The notes under the pieces are model-generated. The model saw nothing but the letters and a program-made list of their open reading frames with translations. It searched no databases and had not been told where the DNA came from. From positions 1-39,466 of the forward strand of contig JAGVOE010000048.1 in NCBI GenBank assembly GCA_020052895.1: a DNA stretch of 39,466 bases, written 5' to 3'. The position numbers and the translations under genes were made by a program. This DNA comes from Candidatus Woesebacteria bacterium (lineage in GTDB: Bacteria; Patescibacteriota; Microgenomatia; UBA1400; MFAQ01). Each line of letters starts with the position of its first letter. The first letter of the stretch is position 1. Below, one piece after another: positions 7,751 to 33,911 of the stretch.

Positions 7751-7794
7751 GAGCTACAACATGAAATACTATTTGGATAGTAAGTAAGAGTTTG

Positions 7795-7815
7795 ACACCC
7801 ATTTGGGTGTTTTTT
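7795..7815 (+). terminator. intrinsic terminator-like hairpin
   Basis: ACACCC-AUUU-GGGUGU followed by UUUUU. It lies between the GNAT-like gene and the decarboxylase gene. Confidence 0.65.
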
Positions 7816-7844: not shown

Positions 7845-9314
7845 ATGAAAAAAATTGAAGAAGTTAGAGAGTATTTTATAAATCCGAGAAACGTCGAGAA
7901 TGTTGAGGTGGTGGCTCAGCTAGGAGCCGATACAATACGCGCAATGGCGCTGATTTATGTTACAGGAGGAGATATTTCGCTAATGGACGAAAAAACTCAA
8001 AACTGGCTAAGTAGATCCAAAGACTCTGATGCCATCAATGAAATTATGGGTGAATTGCTTTTTCGTGAGTCATCAACCAGAAAATTTGATCATAAATTCA
8101 TGGGGCAAATTCATCCGAGTGGGGGAAAGATAGGTATCTTGGCAACATTAGTGGCGGCGTATATGAATACCAATACCATAGTAAAAGAAGTTTCTTCTTC
8201 TGAGCACAGAATGGAACATGAGGCTATAGATTGGCTCGGAGAAATGTTTGGCTATGACAAAGAAAAATTTAGTGGAAATATCGTCACAGATGGAACTTTG
8301 GCCAACCTGGCAGCATTATGGGTAGCTAGAGAGAAAAAGATTAAAGAATTGAAAGAATCCGGTAAGTGGAAGTCAGACACGGTAATGCATGTCTTGGTAA
8401 ACGACATGAGGCATTATTCGATAGACAAAGCTTGCGTGATACTAGGCACGGGGAATGTGGTGTTAACTCTGCTTCCTAGAAAAGGATATAAAACTGACTT
8501 GGGGGAGGCACAAAAGGCAATTTGGAAGATAAATAGAAGGGGCGAGCAGGTCCTGGCACTAATAGGACTTGCTGGAGAAACTGAAACTGGAGAAGTTGAT
8601 AATATAGATTCTCTGGCTGATTTAGCTGATTCAACGGGAGTGTTTTTACACGTTGATGCGGCTTATGGTGGACCATTCATAATGTCTCAAAGAAGCGGTT
8701 TGTTTAGGGGAATTAATCGAGCAGATTCGATTACGGTAGATCCTCACAAAATGCTTTATGTTCCATACGAGGCTGGGGCTGTGCTATTTAAAGATAAGAA
8801 AGACCACGCCTTGATACAAAGGAGCGCTAGATATTTACAACCAGAGGATAATATGGGTTTATTGGGAGACCCTGAAGAAAGAAATTTTGGTTTTGCGGCA
8901 CGTGTGGAAGGTTCGATGGGATCTGGGGGGGTAATGGCTACCTGGGCCACAGAGAAACTATTGGGTAAAGAAGGATTTACGGCTTTACTTGATCACACGC
9001 TGGAGTTAACAAATCACTGCTTTGACAGAGTCAGCGGTTCTAAGTTTCTTAGACCAATTCACACTCCAGAATTAAACACTCTGTTAATAGGATTATCTAA
9101 TAGTATTCATCTGAGCAAGAAAGATCATTTAGAGTTGGTACAAGATGTCCAACAAGCTGTGGACAAAGAACACGGATACTATGTTTCAACAAATGATGAA
9201 GTGGACAATGGGAAGGCGGCGTTTAGATTTGTAGCAACCCATCCTTGGACAGATATTGTGGATGTTGATGGACTAATCGATTGTTTGGAACTAGAGATTG
9301 CCTCAAGGATATAG
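7845..9314 (+). CDS. group II pyridoxal-phosphate-dependent amino acid decarboxylase
   Basis: VTDGTLANLAALWVARE, HVDAAYGG and SITVDPHKMLYVPYEAG (PLP lysine in DPHK) are typical of the Tyr/Glu/aromatic decarboxylase family. Confidence 0.85.
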   Translation: MKKIEEVREYFINPRNVENVEVVAQLGADTIRAMALIYVTGGDISLMDEKTQNWLSRSKDSDAINEIMGELLFRESSTRKFDHKFMGQIHPSGGKIGILATLVAAYMNTNTIVKEVSSSEHRMEHEAIDWLGEMFGYDKEKFSGNIVTDGTLANLAALWVAREKKIKELKESGKWKSDTVMHVLVNDMRHYSIDKACVILGTGNVVLTLLPRKGYKTDLGEAQKAIWKINRRGEQVLALIGLAGETETGEVDNIDSLADLADSTGVFLHVDAAYGGPFIMSQRSGLFRGINRADSITVDPHKMLYVPYEAGAVLFKDKKDHALIQRSARYLQPEDNMGLLGDPEERNFGFAARVEGSMGSGGVMATWATEKLLGKEGFTALLDHTLELTNHCFDRVSGSKFLRPIHTPELNTLLIGLSNSIHLSKKDHLELVQDVQQAVDKEHGYYVSTNDEVDNGKAAFRFVATHPWTDIVDVDGLIDCLELEIASRI

Positions 9315-9332
9315 TATTTGAGGTTAAATTGA

Positions 9333-9352
9333 CCTGCCTACCGGCAGGCAGG
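9333..9352. repeat. GC-rich palindromic element, variant CTGCCTACCGGCAGGC
   Basis: CCTGCCTACCGGCAGGCAGG. The same 16-mer recurs at 33893-33908, and the close variant TGCCTGCCGGCAGGCA occurs at 30604-30619 and 32385-32400. Confidence 0.8.
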
Positions 9353-9359
9353 CACGATG

Positions 9360-9368
9360 TGATAGAAT
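9360..9368 (+). promoter_or_regulatory. extended -10 promoter element TGATAGAAT
   Basis: TGa+TAGAAT. The ATG of the mini-ORF begins 7 nt after the hexamer. Confidence 0.45.
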
Positions 9369-9374
9369 ACTCTC

Positions 9375-9434
9375 ATGAATAAGTCCTTTTGGTCTCATCA
9401 TACCTATTTCAACCATTCGTTTGGGAGGGTTTGA
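9375..9434 (+). CDS. candidate 19-aa leader peptide MNKSFWSHHTYFNHSFGRV (His-His plus one further His)
   Basis: A short ORF read directly from the sequence. Its last six codons and stop overlap the 5' arm of a long hairpin that competes with a terminator upstream of hisS. Confidence 0.35.
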   Translation: MNKSFWSHHTYFNHSFGRV

Positions 9435-9473
9435 TGTGCTTATTCGATAGTTATCGACACAACCTCCCAAACG
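9418..9473 (+). promoter_or_regulatory. long hairpin (candidate antiterminator)
   Basis: CGUUUGGGAGG (9418-9428) pairs perfectly with CCUCCCAAACG (9463-9473). There are additional UU/AA and GUG/CAC pairs and an apical UCGAUA-GU-UAUCGA hairpin. Confidence 0.55.
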
Positions 9474-9490
9474 GAGGTTTTTTCGTTTTT
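9461..9490 (+). terminator. intrinsic terminator
   Basis: AACCUCC-CAAAC-GGAGGUU followed by UUUUUCGUUUUU. Its 5' arm is the 3' arm of the long hairpin. Confidence 0.65.
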
Positions 9491-9636
9491 GGAGGGTTAG
9501 GAGGTATTATTAAAATAGTGGTGAAAAATAAGAGCTTGCTCGTCTTCTTTTCAATAATCTAATTATTGAAATATCCAGACTGTGCTTCCTCTTATATTTG
9601 CTCATAACTTCGTTATGATGCTTAAATATAAAAAAT

Positions 9637-10848
9637 ATGAATAATATACAAACATTAAAGGGATTTCGTGACTTTTTGCCGAAAGAAGCGAAGGGGCGAC
9701 AGTGGCTGAAAAGAAAAATTGAGGATATTTTTGAGTTGTGGGGGTTCGATCCGATGGAAACACCGACTTTGGAACCCTTGGAACTATTTGAGGGTAAAAT
9801 TGGGGAAGAGGAACAACTATTCTTTAAATTTAAAGATAATGCCGGGCGAGATGTTGCCCTCCGATACGACCAGACGGTACCGACTTGCCGAGTAGTCGGG
9901 CAGTACGCACAGTCACTACCCATGCCTTTTCGCAGATATCAAATTCAACCAGCCTTTAGGGCCGAAAAACCACAGAAAGGGAGGTATCGAGAATTTGTCC
10001 AGTGTGATGCAGATATCTTTGGCGAAAGTTCCTATCTGGCTGATGCTGAAGTAATTGGTTTGTCGATCGATATATACAAAAGATTGGGATTTAAGAATGC
10101 TTGCGTGTCGGTGAACGACCGTGAACTACTAGCTAAAATACCTTACAAGGCGATAGTAGCTATCGACAAGCTAGAAAAGATTGGTGAATTGGGAGTAATA
10201 AGGGACATGATCGAGAAAGGAATTGAGAGAGAAGAAGCAATAAAGTATCTCAAACAGGTTCGTGAACTTCGACCAAATGAAAGGATATTGAAAATATTTG
10301 ATTATTTAAAGAACCTTGGGTTTGATGAAAGTTGGTACAAATTTGAACCGACATTATCCAGATCCTTTTCTTATTCGAGCGGTCCGATTTGGGAGGTTAA
10401 AATAAAAAACTCAACGGGAGGATCAGTGCTGGGTGGAGAAAGATATGATGGGTTGGTAGAAAAAATATCCGGAATTAAAATGCCTGGAACGGGATTTGGT
10501 TTGGGTTTTGATAGAACTTTGGAAGCTTGTCAGGAATTCGGGCTGTTGCCGGAATTTTCGACGGTAACTAAAGTGTTGGTATGTGTGATGGATGGGGAAT
10601 ATTTTGAATATGGGATGCAGATATTAAAAAATTTAAGAGATGTGGGTGTGGAATCGGAAATTTACCCAAGTAAAGAAGTAAAAATAGACAAACAACTAAG
10701 GTATGCAAATAAGAAAGGTATTCCGTATGTGATGATTGTTGGGGCTGACGAAGTACAAGCCAAAAAGGTGTCTCTGAAAAATATGAAGACCGGGGAGCAA
10801 GAGACAACGTTTGTTGAAGATGCGATTAAAAAACTAAAAACAAAATGA
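9637..10848 (+). CDS. hisS: histidyl-tRNA synthetase
   Basis: LKGFRDFLP, RYDQTVP and RRYQIQPAFRAEKPQKGRYREFVQCD are HisRS signatures, followed by a C-terminal anticodon-binding domain. Confidence 0.9.
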   Translation: MNNIQTLKGFRDFLPKEAKGRQWLKRKIEDIFELWGFDPMETPTLEPLELFEGKIGEEEQLFFKFKDNAGRDVALRYDQTVPTCRVVGQYAQSLPMPFRRYQIQPAFRAEKPQKGRYREFVQCDADIFGESSYLADAEVIGLSIDIYKRLGFKNACVSVNDRELLAKIPYKAIVAIDKLEKIGELGVIRDMIEKGIEREEAIKYLKQVRELRPNERILKIFDYLKNLGFDESWYKFEPTLSRSFSYSSGPIWEVKIKNSTGGSVLGGERYDGLVEKISGIKMPGTGFGLGFDRTLEACQEFGLLPEFSTVTKVLVCVMDGEYFEYGMQILKNLRDVGVESEIYPSKEVKIDKQLRYANKKGIPYVMIVGADEVQAKKVSLKNMKTGEQETTFVEDAIKKLKTK

Positions 10849-11927
10849 CAAAAGAAAATTTAATCAAACAGCTGGGTGACTTGGTGGCTTTCAAGACACT
10901 TCCCGGAGAAATCGAGGAGAATTCAAAAGCACTCGACTATGTGGAGAAATTGATTGATAAAGACGTTGTGGTGGAAAGAGTAAAAAATGGAAAGGCTGAG
11001 GTACTAAGAGCCTGGGTGAATAAAAGCAATACTCCTAAGTACTGCTACATGGTCCACATGGATATTGTGGCTGGCCGTGATGATCAGTTTGTGATGCGAA
11101 TTGAAGGTGATAAGGCCATAGGAAGAGGAACAAGTGACATGAAGTTCTCGATTCCTTTGGGTGTGGCCCTTCTAAACGAAGCCAAGTCAAAGAATATCGA
11201 CTTTTGTCTCATGATTACGACCGATGAAGAAGTAGGGGGATTTGAAGGAGCGAAACCAATCGCAGAAAGTGGCTTTGCTCCACAGGTCTTTATAGTGCCA
11301 GATGGAGGGGACAACCTGAACTTCGTGGACAAAGCCAAGGGTGTTTGTCAACTTCGTCTAGTAGCTAAAGGAGTCCCTGCTCACGCCTCCAGACCCTGGC
11401 AGGGTAAAAATGCCATAGATTCGCTGGTGAGACTGGGTGATGAACTACTGAAAATTTACGGCAAGAATAATTTGCAAGAAGGCTGGGAGACGACCATGAA
11501 CTTTGGAACTATAAATGGTGGAATCTCAACTAATCAGGTATGTCCAGAAGCGGAAATGAAAATTGATTTCCGCTATCCTGAAACAGATTCGGTTGAGAAC
11601 ATTACTTCGGTGGTTGAAACAAGAATAAAAGATTTGAACGTAGAAATAGAAGTATCGAAAATGTCTACCGGTTTGCCGACGTTCATCGACATTAACGATC
11701 CTGAAGTAAAAAAATACTTGTCATCGATGGAGAAGGTATTTTGTAAAAAAGTTGAAATAAAACAAACTTATGGAGCATCCGATGCCCGACACTTTGCTTT
11801 ACTAAAGAGTCCGGTTTTAATGCACAAACCACTTGGGGGAGAAATTCACTCGGCAAATGAATGGGAAGATATTGCCTCGGTAATGACGTTTTACGAAGGA
11901 TTGAGAAAATATCTAGGTTTAGCCTAA
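10845..11927 (+). CDS. M20-family metallopeptidase/deacylase (ArgE/DapE-like)
   Basis: MVHMDIV, GRGTSDMKFS, ITTDEEVGG and HSANEW match the M20 family. It overlaps hisS in an ATGA junction. Confidence 0.75.
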   Translation: MTKENLIKQLGDLVAFKTLPGEIEENSKALDYVEKLIDKDVVVERVKNGKAEVLRAWVNKSNTPKYCYMVHMDIVAGRDDQFVMRIEGDKAIGRGTSDMKFSIPLGVALLNEAKSKNIDFCLMITTDEEVGGFEGAKPIAESGFAPQVFIVPDGGDNLNFVDKAKGVCQLRLVAKGVPAHASRPWQGKNAIDSLVRLGDELLKIYGKNNLQEGWETTMNFGTINGGISTNQVCPEAEMKIDFRYPETDSVENITSVVETRIKDLNVEIEVSKMSTGLPTFIDINDPEVKKYLSSMEKVFCKKVEIKQTYGASDARHFALLKSPVLMHKPLGGEIHSANEWEDIASVMTFYEGLRKYLGLA

Positions 11928-30312: not shown

Positions 30313-31298
30313 TGAAAGTACTGATACTAACACGATTTAGGGGGGAGTATGAGCCCAGGCGACTGGCTGAGGAGGCGGTAGAACTAGGGTATAAGGTAGA
30401 CAAAGTTAACTATGAACATGTTCGTTTGGGGGTTAGTCGATTGGGGAAGCCAATTGTTGATCTAGGGACCGGCCGGAAACTGGAAGAGTATGACTTAATC
30501 GTACCAAGGGCGGCGACCAAGAGGGGTGGTCCTAGCATGCTGGGGGTGAAGTCGGTGATTTTGGAGTATATTGAAAATAAAAGAACTCAAGAACTCAAGG
30601 CCATGCCTGCCGGCAGGCAGGAATCAAGAACTCGAGACAGTAACAGTGAAAGAAAAAGTGTAAAGGTGATAAACGGAGAGAGCTTTAAGCACTTTCCTCT
30701 GATGGGTAAACTGGAGCAAGGAGTGCTCCTGGCGCAGGCCGGTCTGCCGGTGATTCCTTTTACTTCGTTTAATGGGGTGAGGGGGTGGAAGAGATACTTG
30801 GAAATATTAAATAAACGGAAAAAAGAGTTTGTGCCGGTGATGGTAAAGGCGAGGTTTGGGTCTCATGGTAAAAATGTCAAGCTGGCCGAGTCCTTAACAA
30901 AGCTAAACAAGCTAGCGATAAAGTATAGCGAAGGCGACGTGCTGATTCAGCCAGTGCTAAAAGTGCGGAGATGGTACCGAGTGCTGATTTTGAACGGAAA
31001 GGTGTTGGGGACGATGAAACACCGACAAAAAGACAGATTCCAGGTGCTGGCTCACCAGGAAGAGCTAGCCAAGATCAAACCTAGGTTCTCTAAAGATCAA
31101 ATGAAGGAACTAGAAAAATTGAGTCTAGAGGCGGTGAGAGTTTTGAAAGCAGACTTTGCCGGACTGGATGTAGCTTGGGATGAAGAGAGTGGACAGTGGC
31201 GAATCTTGGAAGTAAATCGAACGGCTCAGTTTAAGTGGTTTGAAAAGGCTTTTCCGGAGGTGAACGTGGCGGAAAGAATAGTGAGGGTCGATGGCTAG
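30309..31298 (+). CDS. RimK-like ATP-grasp ligase (paralogue 3)
   Basis: PVMVKARFGSHGKNV, VLIQPVLKVRRWYRVLILNG and AGLDVAWDEESGQWRILEVNRTAQF. It carries an in-frame composite repeat. Confidence 0.7.
   Translation: MMKVLILTRFRGEYEPRRLAEEAVELGYKVDKVNYEHVRLGVSRLGKPIVDLGTGRKLEEYDLIVPRAATKRGGPSMLGVKSVILEYIENKRTQELKAMPAGRQESRTRDSNSERKSVKVINGESFKHFPLMGKLEQGVLLAQAGLPVIPFTSFNGVRGWKRYLEILNKRKKEFVPVMVKARFGSHGKNVKLAESLTKLNKLAIKYSEGDVLIQPVLKVRRWYRVLILNGKVLGTMKHRQKDRFQVLAHQEELAKIKPRFSKDQMKELEKLSLEAVRVLKADFAGLDVAWDEESGQWRILEVNRTAQFKWFEKAFPEVNVAERIVRVDG
30581..30638 (+). repeat. composite element: octamer array with a nested 21-nt insertion (16-nt palindrome core; filled-site form)
   Basis: AAGAACTC AAGAACTC AAGG [CCATGCCTGCCGGCAGGCAGG] AATC AAGAACTC GAGAC, translated as RTQELKAMPAGRQESRTRD. 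Confidence 0.9.
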
Positions 31299-32535
31299 AG
31301 TAGCGGTAGGATTGTCTGGAGGGGTAGATAGTGCGGTCTGCACTTTACTTTTGAAAAAGGCGGGGTATGACGTGACAGGGGTGCACCTTTACTGTTGGCC
31401 ACCTAAGAGTGAAATAGAAAAGGACAGACTGACTCGTGCAGAATGGTTTAAGAAAAATGGCTGTCGGGCGGACGAAGACAGAGCTAGTGCTTTGAAGATA
31501 GCTTTGGAGATAGGAATTCCTTTTAAGGAACTGGACTTTTCTGAAGAGTACAACAGTAAGGTAATTAAATATTTTTATGATGAATATGAAGCGGGGCGAA
31601 CTCCAAACCCGGATGTCTTATGTAATAGTGAGATAAAGTTCGGCCTTTTCCTTGATTGGGCTATGAAAAATGGTTTTGATTATATCGCGACGGGGCACTA
31701 CGCGAAACTTCTTTCCGTTTCGAGCCGCGCCAAAACCGTACTCGGACCTCCCGCAAAAGCGGGTTCCCGCCTCCGTTCGGTTTTAGCTAGCGCCTCTGTA
31801 GCGGACGAAGTTTCGTTAAATATTCCGAAGGATAAACACAAGGATCAGACGTATTTTTTGTGGAAATTGACGCAGAAAGAATTGGCTCATGTACTGTTTC
31901 CTTTGGGGGACTTATTAAAAAGTAAGGTGAGAGAAATTGCCAGGGAGGCAGGGCTATCGGTGGCAGACAAAAAAGATAGTCAGGGGATTTGCTTTGTCGG
32001 TAACGTGGAAGTCAGAGAGTTTTTGACCAGAAGACTAAAAGTGAAAACAGGTAAAGTAATGGATATTGAGGGAAATGAGATAGGGATGCACGACGGGGTT
32101 TGGTTTTATACCGTGGGGCAAAGAGGAGGGTGGATTCTGGATCCAAGAACTCAAGAACTCAAGAACTCAAGAACTCAAGACGGGGAGACACCGATATATT
32201 ACGTAATTTCTAAGGATGCCAAGACAAATACTTTGGTAGTGGGTGAAGCCAACGAGGCAGTCAAAGACCTCTTTGAGTTGAAAGAAACGAGCTGGATCAG
32301 TGACACAGTGCCACGGTTTTACGGTGACATGTTTGTGCGAATCCGGCATGGAGGCGAACTTCTAAGGGCAAGAACTCAAGGCCATGCCTGCCGGCAGGCA
32401 GGAATCAAGAACTCAAGAAATCAAGATGGGATACATGTAGTGCTAGATAAGGCAGTGAGGGGGATTGCCAGTGGTCAAAGTGCGGTTTTTTACGATGGAG
32501 AGGGTGAGTGCCTGGGCGGTGGAGTGATCCAATAA
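31291..32535 (+). CDS. mnmA: tRNA-specific 2-thiouridylase
   Basis: VAVGLSGGVDSAV (PP-loop), ATGHYA, KDQTYFL, DSQGICF and GQSAVFYDG. It carries three in-frame insertions. It overlaps the upstream ligase by 8 nt. Confidence 0.9.
   Translation: MARVAVGLSGGVDSAVCTLLLKKAGYDVTGVHLYCWPPKSEIEKDRLTRAEWFKKNGCRADEDRASALKIALEIGIPFKELDFSEEYNSKVIKYFYDEYEAGRTPNPDVLCNSEIKFGLFLDWAMKNGFDYIATGHYAKLLSVSSRAKTVLGPPAKAGSRLRSVLASASVADEVSLNIPKDKHKDQTYFLWKLTQKELAHVLFPLGDLLKSKVREIAREAGLSVADKKDSQGICFVGNVEVREFLTRRLKVKTGKVMDIEGNEIGMHDGVWFYTVGQRGGWILDPRTQELKNSRTQDGETPIYYVISKDAKTNTLVVGEANEAVKDLFELKETSWISDTVPRFYGDMFVRIRHGGELLRARTQGHACRQAGIKNSRNQDGIHVVLDKAVRGIASGQSAVFYDGEGECLGGGVIQ
31703..31815 (+). repeat. GC-rich 113-nt imperfect hairpin element embedded in frame in mnmA
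   Basis: The terminal inverted repeats CGAAACTTC (31703-31711) and GAAGTTTCG (31807-31815) are perfect. Internal pairings include AAAACCG/CGGTTTT and GCGC/GCGC, plus a CCCGC-AAAA-GCGGG hairpin. The element lies where MnmA homologues have a much shorter segment after ATGHYA. Confidence 0.7.
32145..32181 (+). repeat. tandem octamer array (4 perfect AAGAACTC units) inside mnmA
   Basis: AAGAACTC x4 followed by AAGAC, translated as RTQELKNSRTQD. Confidence 0.9.
32370..32427 (+). repeat. composite element with nested 21-nt insertion (16-nt palindrome core) inside mnmA (filled-site form)
   Basis: AAGAACTC AAGG [CCATGCCTGCCGGCAGGCAGG] AATC AAGAACTC AAGAAATC AAGAT, translated as RTQGHACRQAGIKNSRNQD. 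Confidence 0.9.
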
Positions 32536-33817: not shown

Positions 33818-33892
33818 GTGATAAAATGGAGATACCGATTGGGTTTTCGGTCAGTTCTTTTTTTGCTTCTTTACCGGTCATTGAAAGATGAT

Positions 33893-33911
33893 CTGCCTAC
33901 CGGCAGGCGGG
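33893..33911. repeat. GC-rich palindromic element CTGCCTACCGGCAGGC(GGG)
   Basis: The same 16-mer as at 9334-9349. It lies immediately upstream of the -35 of the 16S promoter. Confidence 0.8.

What the first reader, a model, noticed from the sequence alone, without database searches (positions are those of the whole stretch)
9360..9490. Candidate histidine leader-peptide attenuator upstream of hisS
An extended -10 (TGATAGAAT) is followed 7 nt after the hexamer by a 19-codon ORF, MNKSFWSHHTYFNHSFGRV, with CAT-CAT at codons 8-9 and CAT at codon 14. The last six codons and the stop overlap the 5' arm of a strong hairpin (9418-9473, with 11 perfect base pairs plus extensions). The 3' arm of that hairpin is also the 5' arm of a terminator (9461-9490).

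A ribosome reaching the stop would melt the long hairpin and allow the terminator to form. A ribosome stalled at His-His would leave the long hairpin intact and prevent termination.

Attenuation by a cognate-codon leader peptide is established for E. coli pheST and for amino acid operons. I do not know of it for hisS, which is T-box-controlled in Firmicutes.

Caveats: about 145 nt and a second possible promoter (TGCTTAAAT at 9619-9627) lie between the terminator and hisS. The terminator could also simply end the decarboxylase transcript.
Basis: partly seen in the sequence, partly recalled or inferred. Interest (0 to 1): 0.6.

Follow-up and report, generated by a model that had tools for sequence, protein, structure and literature searches.

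The report
Histidine-sensing leader-peptide attenuator before hisS
A 19-codon, histidine-rich mini-gene with a switchable terminator in front of the histidyl-tRNA synthetase gene of an ultra-small (CPR, Collierbacteria) bacterium is very probably a real ribosome-stalling attenuator, a known kind of control found here in an unstudied lineage and on a synthetase gene.

Summary

- **Conservation.** The whole unit lies directly upstream of hisS in nine distinct Candidatus Collierbacteria sequences. The unit is an extended -10, then ATG after exactly 6 nt, a 19-20 codon ORF, an antiterminator/terminator pair and a U-run. It sits behind four different upstream genes and in front of two HisRS types only 38% identical.
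- **His codons.** Every copy keeps 2-3 (one has 4) in-frame His codons: 14.7% of codons against 1.76% genome-wide. One CAT is invariant inside an otherwise variable stretch.
- **Structure.** The antiterminator and a second helix (5' AUG region with the post-stop region) show compensatory changes.
- **Independent cases.** Three unrelated-looking His-rich leaders with terminators lie upstream of hisS in other lineages of the same order.
- **Physiology.** The genome shows no histidine biosynthesis genes, so HisRS is a sensible target.

Caveats:
- The long hairpin reaches the U-run through AACC:GGUU. Relief of termination therefore needs the stalled ribosome to block its base (inference).
- This window carries an extra ~120 nt and a possible proximal promoter before hisS.
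- An invariant post-terminator block is unexplained.

This scan has already noted many similar leaderless attenuators in other CPR genomes. A His leader before a Bacillus hisS paralogue was predicted in 2010. I file it as a new member of a known kind.

The parts
9333..9352 (.). Copy of a genome-wide 20-nt palindrome (CCTGCCTACCGGCAGGCAGG). In this genome it is inserted between a TTGAC motif and the -10 of the leader promoter. It is not part of the conserved unit.
   Evidence: About 45 copies in the 733-kb genome. It is absent at this position in the relatives.
9360..9368 (+). Extended -10 promoter element TGATAGAAT (hexamer TAGAAT 9363-9368). It places the predicted transcription start at or next to A9375, giving a leaderless mRNA.
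   Evidence: TA(G/T/A)AAT lies exactly 6 nt before the ATG in all 9 leaders. Genome-wide, TAnnnT at exactly 6 nt before the ATG occurs in 16% of long ORFs, against 1-7% at every other spacing tested. Only 9% of long ORFs have a strong SD.
9375..9434 (+). Leader ORF of 19 codons plus TGA: MNKSFWSHHTYFNHSFGRV. The sensor codons are His8-His9 (9396-9401). A third His codon is at 9414-9416.
   Evidence: ORF start, frame and stop position are kept in 9 of 9 sequences. There are 26 in-frame His codons in 177 codons, against 3 and 2 in the other two frames; genome His content is 1.76%.
9376..9383 (+). 5' strand of helix P1 (UGAAUAAG). It pairs with 9439-9446 (CUUAUUCG) and sequesters the 5'-terminal start region when no ribosome is loaded.
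   Evidence: Better than shuffles in 5 of 9 sequences at <=5%, mean z -2.5. Two pairs change on both sides (A-U to G-C at columns 5/72; A-U to U-A at 8/69).
9411..9428 (+). Arm 1, the 5' strand of the antiterminator. The core UUCGUUUGGGAGG is 9416-9428. AACC 9411-9414 can extend the helix to the U-run. Arm 1 overlaps the last codons of the leader ORF.
   Evidence: Duplex of -27.4 kcal/mol with 9463-9479. Five pairs show changes on both sides across the 9 sequences.
9439..9446 (+). 3' strand of helix P1, just after the leader stop codon.
9461..9490 (+). Intrinsic terminator: stem AACCUCC/GGAGGUU (9461-9467 with 9473-9479), loop CAAAC, U-run UUUUCGUUUUU (9480-9490). Positions 9463-9475 are also the 3' strand of the antiterminator.
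   Evidence: Scan hit. A hairpin of -7.6 to -12.6 kcal/mol plus U-run is present in all 9 sequences. CCUCC/GGAGG is replaced by CCCGC/GCGGG in three of them.
9491..9516 (+). Conserved post-terminator block GGAGGG..AGGAGGTATTATTAA(A)ATAG, made of two SD-like motifs plus TATTAT. Its function is unexplained. Candidates are a standby ribosome site for the SD-less hisS start, or a hisS-proximal -10.
   Evidence: GAGGTATTATT is invariant in 9 of 9 leaders. It occurs only 1-3 times per genome, near background. The region is predicted unstructured in relatives.
9517..9636 (+). Spacer that is much longer here than in most relatives (43-78 nt from U-run to ATG in seven relatives, 156 nt here).
   Evidence: spacer lengths. 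(second copy at contig C74:112-181, upstream of a leaderless glycosyltransferase-like gene, with compensatory changes in the palindrome).
9637..10848 (+). hisS, histidine--tRNA ligase (403 aa), the regulated gene.
   Evidence: TIGR00442 at 349.9 bits, above its cut-off of 286.75. Pfam tRNA-synt_His plus HGTP_anticodon.
10845..11927 (+). M20-family metallopeptidase/deacylase gene. It overlaps the hisS stop by 4 nt and is presumably co-transcribed.
   Evidence: Pfam Peptidase_M20 plus M20_dimer. ArgE/DapE-like matches are below curated cut-offs.

Best explanation
This is a ribosome-mediated (leader-peptide) transcription attenuator that couples hisS expression to the supply of charged tRNA-His.

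**Proposed sequence of events**
- Transcription starts at or next to A9375 from the extended -10 promoter. The 19-codon leader is translated as a leaderless mRNA.
- With ample His-tRNA, the ribosome runs to the TGA at 9432-9434 and covers arm 1 (9411-9428). The short terminator (9461-9479 plus U-run) then forms and transcription stops before hisS.
- With no ribosome loaded, helix P1 (9376-9383 with 9439-9446) and/or the complete long hairpin form. Transcription also stops.
- With scarce His-tRNA, the ribosome stalls at CAU-CAU (9396-9401). Arm 1 stays free and captures the terminator's 5' arm and loop (9463-9475). The bulk of the ribosome keeps the base of that helix (AACC:GGUU) from closing against the U-run. 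RNA polymerase then reads on into hisS and the overlapping M20 peptidase gene.

**Shown here**
- The anatomy.
- Its conservation and covariation.
- The His-codon enrichment.
- The exclusive linkage to hisS.
- The genome-wide leaderless signature.

**Inferred**
- The transcription start.
- Translation of the ORF.
- The steric exclusion that makes the long hairpin an antiterminator.
- The response to histidine.
For: 1. **Conservation with hisS.** The sequence model R1 gives E 1e-26 to 1e-36 only in genus g1 (Cand. Collierbacteria by record titles). Every strong hit lies directly upstream of hisS. Metagenome contigs add two more copies.
2. **Different flanks.** Upstream genes are a PLP decarboxylase, a YbaK-type tRNA_edit protein, an M20 peptidase, or a divergent gene. 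Downstream hisS is of two types, 38% identical.
3. **His codons.** There are 26 in 177 leader codons (14.7%), against 1.76% in long ORFs. Counts by frame are 26, 3 and 2. No copy has an in-frame stop. CAT at codon 8/9 is invariant.
4. **Helices.** On alignment A2, 79% of cells pair in register, against 35-55% when the partners are slid. Seven pairs change on both sides. The covariation score is 0.285 against 0.235 in shuffles, reached by 5 of 500. All 9 copies have a terminator, with a CCUCC/GGAGG to CCCGC/GCGGG swap in three.
5. **State-dependent folds.** Ribosome at the stop gives the short terminator with P = 1.0 in all 9. Ribosome at the early or middle His codons leaves arm 2 held by arm 1 (P 0.6-1.0).
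6. **Leaderless signature.** There is a sharp genome-wide peak of TAnnnT exactly 6 nt before the ATG.
7. **Independent cases upstream of hisS.** G114 has MNETRIVLASHHHFHALRGSVSHI, G037 has MLLSNATTQVHHHTLL and G020 has MTAMSFSHHFHLSF. Each has an antiterminator/terminator pair.
8. **Physiology.** No Histidinol_dh or His_biosynth hits in the 91%-complete genome, while both families ring in all 14 control genomes. There is a single tRNA-His(GUG).
Against: - **Flush hairpin.** In this window's copy, with the usual 16-nt ribosome exclusion, a stall at His8/His9 still leaves a hairpin flush with the U-run (P = 1.0). Relief needs 19 nt or more (His9) or 22 nt or more (His8) of exclusion.
- **Third His codon.** A stall at the third His codon predicts termination.
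- **Possible proximal promoters.** 146 nt, including a repeated element and -10-like sequences, separate the terminator from hisS here. Some relatives also have -10-like hexamers near the hisS ATG. hisS may therefore have its own promoter, with the attenuator controlling only part of its transcription.
- **Unexplained block.** hisS has no SD, and the invariant post-terminator block is unexplained.
- **Limited sample.** Nine related sequences give limited statistical power.
Confidence: 0.78

Rival explanations
1. Insulating terminator plus separate hisS promoter. The hairpin and U-run simply end transcription coming from the upstream gene and from the small promoter. hisS is expressed only from a proximal promoter (TATTAT in the conserved block, or TGCTTAAAT at 9619-9627). 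The His codons have no regulatory role.
For: - No other terminator lies between the decarboxylase stop (9314) and 9461.
- Both alternative hairpins end at the U-run.
- -10-like sequences exist near hisS.
- hisS genes of relatives without the leader are driven by a TATAAT or TAGAAT 6-7 nt before the ATG.
Against: - It does not explain the conserved start, frame and stop.
- It does not explain the 8-fold His enrichment confined to one frame, or the invariant CAT.
- It does not explain the covarying antiterminator.
- It does not explain retention of the unit behind four different upstream genes.
- It does not explain the independent His-rich leaders before hisS in three other lineages.
Confidence: 0.08
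2. Independent small gene. The terminated ~110-nt transcript, or its 19-aa peptide, is the functional product, acting in trans as reported for the Sinorhizobium trpL attenuator RNA and peptide. Its position next to hisS is then only a matter of linkage.
For: - The unit has its own promoter and terminator.
- The RNA is highly structured.
- Trans-acting attenuator products are documented in the abstracts of PMC7968998 and PMC7298713.
Against: - The peptide sequence is not conserved apart from Met1, the His codons and the C-terminal residues that overlap arm 1.
- The unit never occurs away from hisS in the genomes and contigs searched.
- A trans role would add to cis attenuation rather than replace it.
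Confidence: 0.07
3. A tRNA-sensing RNA of the T-box type. The invariant CAU acts as a specifier codon read by uncharged tRNA-His, and the UGGG in arm 1 pairs with the tRNA 3' end. No translation would be needed.
For: - The invariant codon is CAU.
- Arm 1 contains UGGG.
Against: - No T-box (RF00230) match even at E <= 10.
- The leader is only ~105 nt long and has no Stem I.
- The conserved AUG 6 nt after a -10, the conserved stop and the frame-specific His codons all point to translation.
Confidence: 0.03

Closest known systems
Escherichia coli pheST attenuator (pheM leader peptide)
   Same: A leader-peptide transcription attenuator controls an aminoacyl-tRNA synthetase gene through codons for its own amino acid. 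The logic is the same: low charged tRNA, stall, antiterminator, more synthetase.
   Different: It senses Phe rather than His. It has an SD-led leader in a Gammaproteobacterium. There is no sequence relationship. Here the leader is apparently leaderless, and the antiterminator can extend to the U-run.
Predicted histidine leader peptide upstream of the Bacillus hisS paralogue (hisS*) and hisZ (Naville & Gautheret 2010, PMC2965389)
   Same: A short ORF with a stretch of His codons plus a premature terminator lies upstream of a hisS-family gene.
   Different: It is from Firmicutes, precedes a paralogue or hisZ rather than the housekeeping hisS, and is a prediction only. I did not compare the sequences. 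The canonical Bacillus hisS carries a T-box.
Enterobacterial his operon leader (hisL; Rfam His_leader RF00514)
   Same: His codons act as the sensor, with a terminator/antiterminator alternative.
   Different: hisL has seven consecutive His codons and controls biosynthesis genes. No Rfam match was found here at E <= 10. This genome shows no His biosynthesis genes.
Leaderless short-ORF attenuators of Actinobacteria (mycobacterial polycysteine sORFs, bioRxiv 10.1101/834739; Corynebacterium ilvBNC leader, PMC11857589)
   Same: A leaderless mRNA begins with the AUG of an amino-acid-biased mini-ORF that governs downstream genes (abstracts).
   Different: They are from another phylum, sense other amino acids and control other targets. 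I took only the abstracts, so I did not compare mechanistic details.

Membership tests
Leader-peptide (ribosome-mediated) transcription attenuators | Short translated ORF enriched in codons of the amino acid relevant to the regulated gene | tested here: met
   2-4 His in 19-20 codons in 9 of 9 sequences. That is 14.7% against 1.76% genome-wide, in one frame only. The downstream gene is hisS. Translation itself was not tested.
Leader-peptide (ribosome-mediated) transcription attenuators | Intrinsic terminator between the leader ORF and the regulated gene | tested here: met
   a hairpin plus U-run in all 9 sequences.
Leader-peptide (ribosome-mediated) transcription attenuators | Antiterminator helix that shares a strand with the terminator and is conserved through compensatory changes | tested here: met
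   Arm 1 with arm 2: 80% of cells paired and 5 pairs with changes on both sides. Caveat: the helix can extend to the U-run.
Leader-peptide (ribosome-mediated) transcription attenuators | Geometry in which a ribosome at the regulatory codons favours the antiterminator and a ribosome at the stop favours the terminator | tested here: inconclusive
   The stop-codon state gives the terminator in 9 of 9. The His-stall state keeps arm 2 sequestered. In this window's copy, however, the 3' arm end is free only if the ribosome excludes 19-22 nt or more.
Leader-peptide (ribosome-mediated) transcription attenuators | Readthrough rises when the cognate charged tRNA is limiting | not testable with these tools
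Rfam His_leader (RF00514) | Match to the covariance model | tested here: not met
   cmscan of 9200-9800 at E <= 10 returned only sub-threshold miRNA/snoRNA-type matches.
T-box riboswitch (RF00230) | Match to the covariance model (Stem I with specifier loop, T-box antiterminator bulge) | tested here: not met
   No match at E <= 10. The leader is too short for a Stem I.
Leaderless mRNAs | Transcription start at or within a few nt of the start codon, and no SD | tested here: inconclusive
   A -10 hexamer lies exactly 6 nt before the ATG in 9 of 9 sequences, with no SD. There is a genome-wide peak at the same spacing. The transcription start was not mapped.

The most novel reading that the evidence does not exclude
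The hisS leader would be one visible member of a large, unpublished regulon of leaderless leader-peptide attenuators in CPR/Patescibacteria. Besides aaRS genes, these attenuators gate peptidases, aminotransferases and orphan genes, and so reveal which amino acids these auxotrophic symbionts monitor.

This particular design would also be a 'two-terminator' switch. Both alternative hairpins abut the U-run. Only the physical presence of a stalled ribosome at the base of the long hairpin (the invariant CC of AACC, 9413-9414) prevents termination.

The invariant tandem SD-like block after the terminator would be a second, translational layer for the SD-less hisS start.
Probability: 0.3. Interest if true: 0.65.

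Novelty: new member of a known kind. Interest (0 to 1): 0.5.

Why it matters
CPR/Patescibacteria are uncultured, ultra-small and auxotrophic, and almost nothing is known about how they regulate genes.

- **A classical mechanism in CPR.** A well-supported cis-acting sensor of charged tRNA-His in front of hisS shows that ribosome-coupled attenuation operates in this group. It works from leaderless mRNAs and is applied to a synthetase rather than to a biosynthetic operon the organism does not have.
- **A lead for annotation.** The co-transcribed M20 peptidase may belong to the histidine-scavenging response.
- **A handle for experiments.** The element is small, which makes it suitable for in-vitro study of CPR transcription-translation coupling.
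- **Limits on novelty.** The mechanism is known. A His leader for a hisS paralogue was predicted in Bacillus. This scan has already met many CPR attenuators on other DNA.

Tried and rejected
- **Rfam.** The scan of 9200-9800 at E <= 10 gave only spurious hairpin matches to miRNA models, with no T-box and no His_leader.
- **RNAalifold on the raw MAFFT alignment A1.** It gave a poor consensus because the terminators were misaligned. I used explicit helices on A2 instead. The terminator register differs between two sequence classes, so I tabulated it by hand.
- **Classical '1:2' helix.** A helix between the His-codon region and arm 1 is not better than shuffles in most sequences. I rejected it as a conserved feature. 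The conserved upstream helix is P1 (5' AUG region with the post-stop region).
- **First family-level pattern search.** The gap was set too narrow and it missed half the copies.
- **Genome-contig scan.** It returned only the copies already found, plus chance hits in unrelated phyla.
- **Second mini-ORF in the post-terminator block.** ATT-ATT-AAA-TAG, or an upstream in-frame start for hisS, is not consistent across sequences because of indels and frame changes.
- **The block as a general promoter or RBS motif.** It occurs at background frequency elsewhere.
- **Two 'T-run then GGAGGAGG' sites elsewhere in the genome.** These (C10, C76) showed no attenuator-like mini-ORF architecture upstream.

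Full report
**What is in the sequence**

The decarboxylase gene ends at 9314 and hisS starts at 9637. Between them the window holds, in order:
- A copy of a genome-wide palindrome at 9333-9352.
- TGATAGAAT at 9360-9368.
- Six nt later, ATG 9375, which opens a 19-codon ORF, MNKSFWSHHTYFNHSFGRV, with its stop at 9432-9434.
- A long hairpin whose core pairs 9416-9428 with 9463-9475.
- A short hairpin, AACCUCC-CAAAC-GGAGGUU (9461-9479), followed by UUUUCGUUUUU (to 9490).

The terminator scan finds the short hairpin on its own. The 128-nt stretch folds at -37 kcal/mol, z = -3.08 against shuffles. I add one point: AACC 9411-9414 pairs with GGUU 9476-9479, so the long hairpin can run flush to the U-run.

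**Organism**

The assembly is 733 kb in 84 contigs, 45% GC and about 91% complete. Public records carrying the same element are titled Candidatus Collierbacteria or Patescibacteria. I found no Histidinol_dh or His_biosynth family hits, although both searches ring in all 14 control genomes. The genome has one tRNA-His(GUG).

**Conservation**

- I compared 400 nt upstream of hisS in 15 of the best-matching loci from the 40 relatives searched. The same unit appeared in five same-genus genomes.
- Pattern scans of public genomes and metagenomes added a full-length copy of a contig-cut leader (G011) and one new copy.
- A sequence-only covariance model searched in 151 genomes of the order added a copy in G004.
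- In total there are nine non-identical leaders.
- All strong matches (E 1e-26 to 1e-36) lie directly upstream of hisS. I found none elsewhere.
- The upstream gene is a PLP decarboxylase in three, a YbaK-type tRNA-editing protein in three, an M20 peptidase in two and a divergent gene in one.
- The downstream HisRS is of two types, only 38% identical.
- The unit therefore travels with hisS, not with the decarboxylase.

**The mini-ORF**

- All nine leaders keep the ATG exactly 6 nt after a TA(G/T/A)AAT hexamer, an open frame of 19-20 codons, and a stop at the same place inside GG(G)UUUAA/UGA.
- The peptides are otherwise poorly conserved. Examples are MSKLNGAIHHTHLNPNSERA, MNKVTLKSHRSHTFHSLGLV and MNLIVFAYHFHSDHTFGRV.
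- Each has 2-4 His. In all, 26 of 177 codons (14.7%) are His, against 1.76% in the genome's long ORFs.
- CAT/CAC occurs 26 times in frame and 3 and 2 times in the other frames.
- One CAT (codon 8 or 9) is invariant within a variable stretch.
- This pattern is what a sensor ORF should look like. A functional small protein would not look like this.

**Leaderless start**

- In this genome only about 9% of long ORFs have a strong SD.
- TAnnnT exactly 6 nt before the ATG occurs in 16% of long ORFs, against 1-7% at every other spacing from 0 to 39.
- The leader has exactly this spacing and no SD.
- I infer a leaderless mRNA starting at about 9375. The start was not mapped.

**RNA structures**

- All nine leaders have a terminator hairpin of -7.6 to -12.6 kcal/mol plus a U-run. 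In three of them CCUCC/GGAGG is replaced by CCCGC/GCGGG, which makes two compensated positions.
- On alignment A2 I tested two helices that I named. One is the antiterminator (columns 45-58 with 93-106; in the window 9416-9429 with 9462-9475, whose last pair, 9429:9462, is a G-A mismatch here, leaving the 13-bp core 9416-9428:9463-9475). The other is P1 (columns 2-14 with 63-75), of which only 9376-9383 with 9439-9446 pair in the window.
- 79% of cells pair in register, against 35-55% when the partners are slid by 1-3 columns. Seven pairs change on both sides, five of them in the antiterminator. The covariation score is 0.285 against 0.235 in shuffles, reached by 5 of 500.
- P1 beats mononucleotide shuffles of its 5' strand at <=5% in five of nine sequences, with mean z -2.5.
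- A trp-like '1:2' helix between the His codons and arm 1 is not supported.

**Mechanism**

I ran constrained folds with a ribosome mask.
- With the A site on the stop codon, arm 1 is covered and the short terminator forms (P = 1.0 in 9 of 9).
- Without a ribosome, most relatives fold P1 plus the terminator. The window's copy folds the complete long hairpin, which also abuts the U-run.
- With the A site on the early His codons, the terminator's 5' arm is held by arm 1 (P 0.6-1.0).

This is the classical attenuation logic. The weak point is quantitative.
- With the usual 16-nt exclusion, the AACC:GGUU extension can still close in the window's copy. The hairpin would then be terminator-like.
- The 3' arm end becomes free only with 19 nt or more of exclusion at His9, or 22 nt or more at His8.
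- In four relatives a middle His codon (11 or 12) gives relief already at 16 nt.
- I consider a larger effective exclusion plausible. The base of a terminator hairpin must form inside the RNA exit channel of RNA polymerase, only 0-3 nt from the ribosome's leading edge. This is inference.
- The CC of AACC (9413-9414) is invariant whether the codons read Asn-His or Asn-Pro. That suggests the extension is selected, perhaps so that a ribosome-free long hairpin still terminates.
- A stall at the third His codon (9414-9416) predicts termination, so that codon is unlikely to be the sensor.

**Independent support**

I scanned 450 nt upstream of hisS in the other loci, and checked the weak model hits. 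This gave three His-rich leaders of quite different sequence, each with its own antiterminator and terminator before hisS:
- G114, another family: MNETRIVLASHHHFHALRGSVSHI.
- G037, another family: MLLSNATTQVHHHTLL.
- G020, another genus: MTAMSFSHHFHLSF.

The weak model hits show the same architecture with other biases:
- Cys-rich: MNKFACCCEGDCCGGECEC.
- Phe-rich: ..KFFFFQ...
- HH.AWYY leaders before class I/II aminotransferase genes and an M20 peptidase gene.

The window itself holds a Tyr-Tyr mini-ORF (7761-7787) plus a terminator (7794-7811) before the decarboxylase.

**Open points**

1. After the terminator, all nine leaders keep GGAG..(A)GGAGGUAUUAUUAA almost invariant. GAGGTATTATT is not a general motif, occurring 1-3 times per genome. 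In relatives the region down to the SD-less hisS AUG is essentially unstructured. It could be a standby ribosome site for readthrough transcripts or a proximal -10. I could not decide between these.
2. In this window the distance from the U-run to hisS is 156 nt, against 43-78 nt in seven relatives. A proximal promoter for hisS is therefore possible here. The attenuator would then control only transcripts from the distal promoter.

**Comparison with the known**

- There is no Rfam match to His_leader or T-box.
- The mechanistic class is that of the enterobacterial leader-peptide attenuators. The closest functional parallel is E. coli pheST.
- A histidine leader peptide upstream of a Bacillus hisS paralogue and hisZ was predicted by Naville and Gautheret (PMC2965389).
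- Leaderless sensor ORFs are described in mycobacteria (10.1101/834739).
- No paper in the held library combines 'leader peptide', 'attenuator' and 'Patescibacteria'.
- This scan has already recorded many similar CPR attenuators on other DNA. Those notes are leads, not evidence.

**Verdict**

This is a real, conserved, His-codon leader-peptide attenuator linked to hisS. It is a new member of a known kind. Confidence is about 0.78 and interest is moderate.

Noticed in passing
window 9333-9352, 30602-30621, 32383-32402, 33892-33911; genome-wide: The 20-nt palindrome CCTGCCTGCCGGCAGGCAGG occurs about 45 times in the 733-kb genome. It often sits inside a larger repeat (cgtcattgcgagg...ggcaatctcactcca) or between gaactcaag units. 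One copy sits right after what looks like the D-arm of a tRNA gene (contig C22:4648-4667).
   Followed up: partly
window 9528-9597 (palindrome 9550-9570) and contig C74:112-181: A 70-nt element is repeated at 80% identity upstream of two promoters. It contains TTCAATAAT-CTA-ATTATTGAA here and TTCGATAAT-ATTT-ATTATCGAA in the other copy, so the changes are compensatory. It is a candidate operator or small hairpin element.
   Followed up: partly
window 7761-7811: The mini-ORF MKYYLDSK (7761-7787) has tandem Tyr codons and is followed by the terminator GACACCCATTTGGGTGTT plus a T-run (7794-7811), about 30 nt before the PLP decarboxylase start. It is a second candidate leader-peptide attenuator in the same window, and earlier notes had also flagged it.
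   Followed up: partly
loci L094, L096, L100, L105, L103, L104, L107 (other genera of the same order): The same attenuator architecture appears with other leader peptides. HH.AWYY leaders precede class I/II aminotransferase genes (three genomes) and an M20 peptidase gene. A FFFF leader precedes a 224-aa orphan, a 7-Cys leader precedes a 72-aa orphan, and HLHHVHH precedes a 272-aa protein with no Pfam match.
   Followed up: partly
window 10845-10848: hisS and the following M20-family peptidase/deacylase gene overlap by 4 nt. M20 genes recur next to hisS or behind His-type leaders in relatives (L018, L064, L105, L109). This suggests a link between peptide hydrolysis and histidine supply.
   Followed up: no
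L012, L018, L091 and window 9330-9334: A TTGAC(A) motif lies only 7-8 nt upstream of the -10 hexamer in three relatives, too close to be a -35. In the window the palindrome insertion splits it from the -10. Its role is unknown.
   Followed up: no
genome-wide (G000): There is a sharp peak of TAnnnT exactly 6 nt upstream of ATG (16% of long ORFs), and strong SD motifs are scarce (9%). Leaderless mRNAs appear to be a major mode of initiation in this Collierbacteria genome.
   Followed up: yes
G004 contig C15 (about 21.7-25.7 kb): This relative carries two HisRS-like genes within 4 kb. One is a 441-aa type behind the His leader. The other is a convergent 464-aa paralogue.
   Followed up: no
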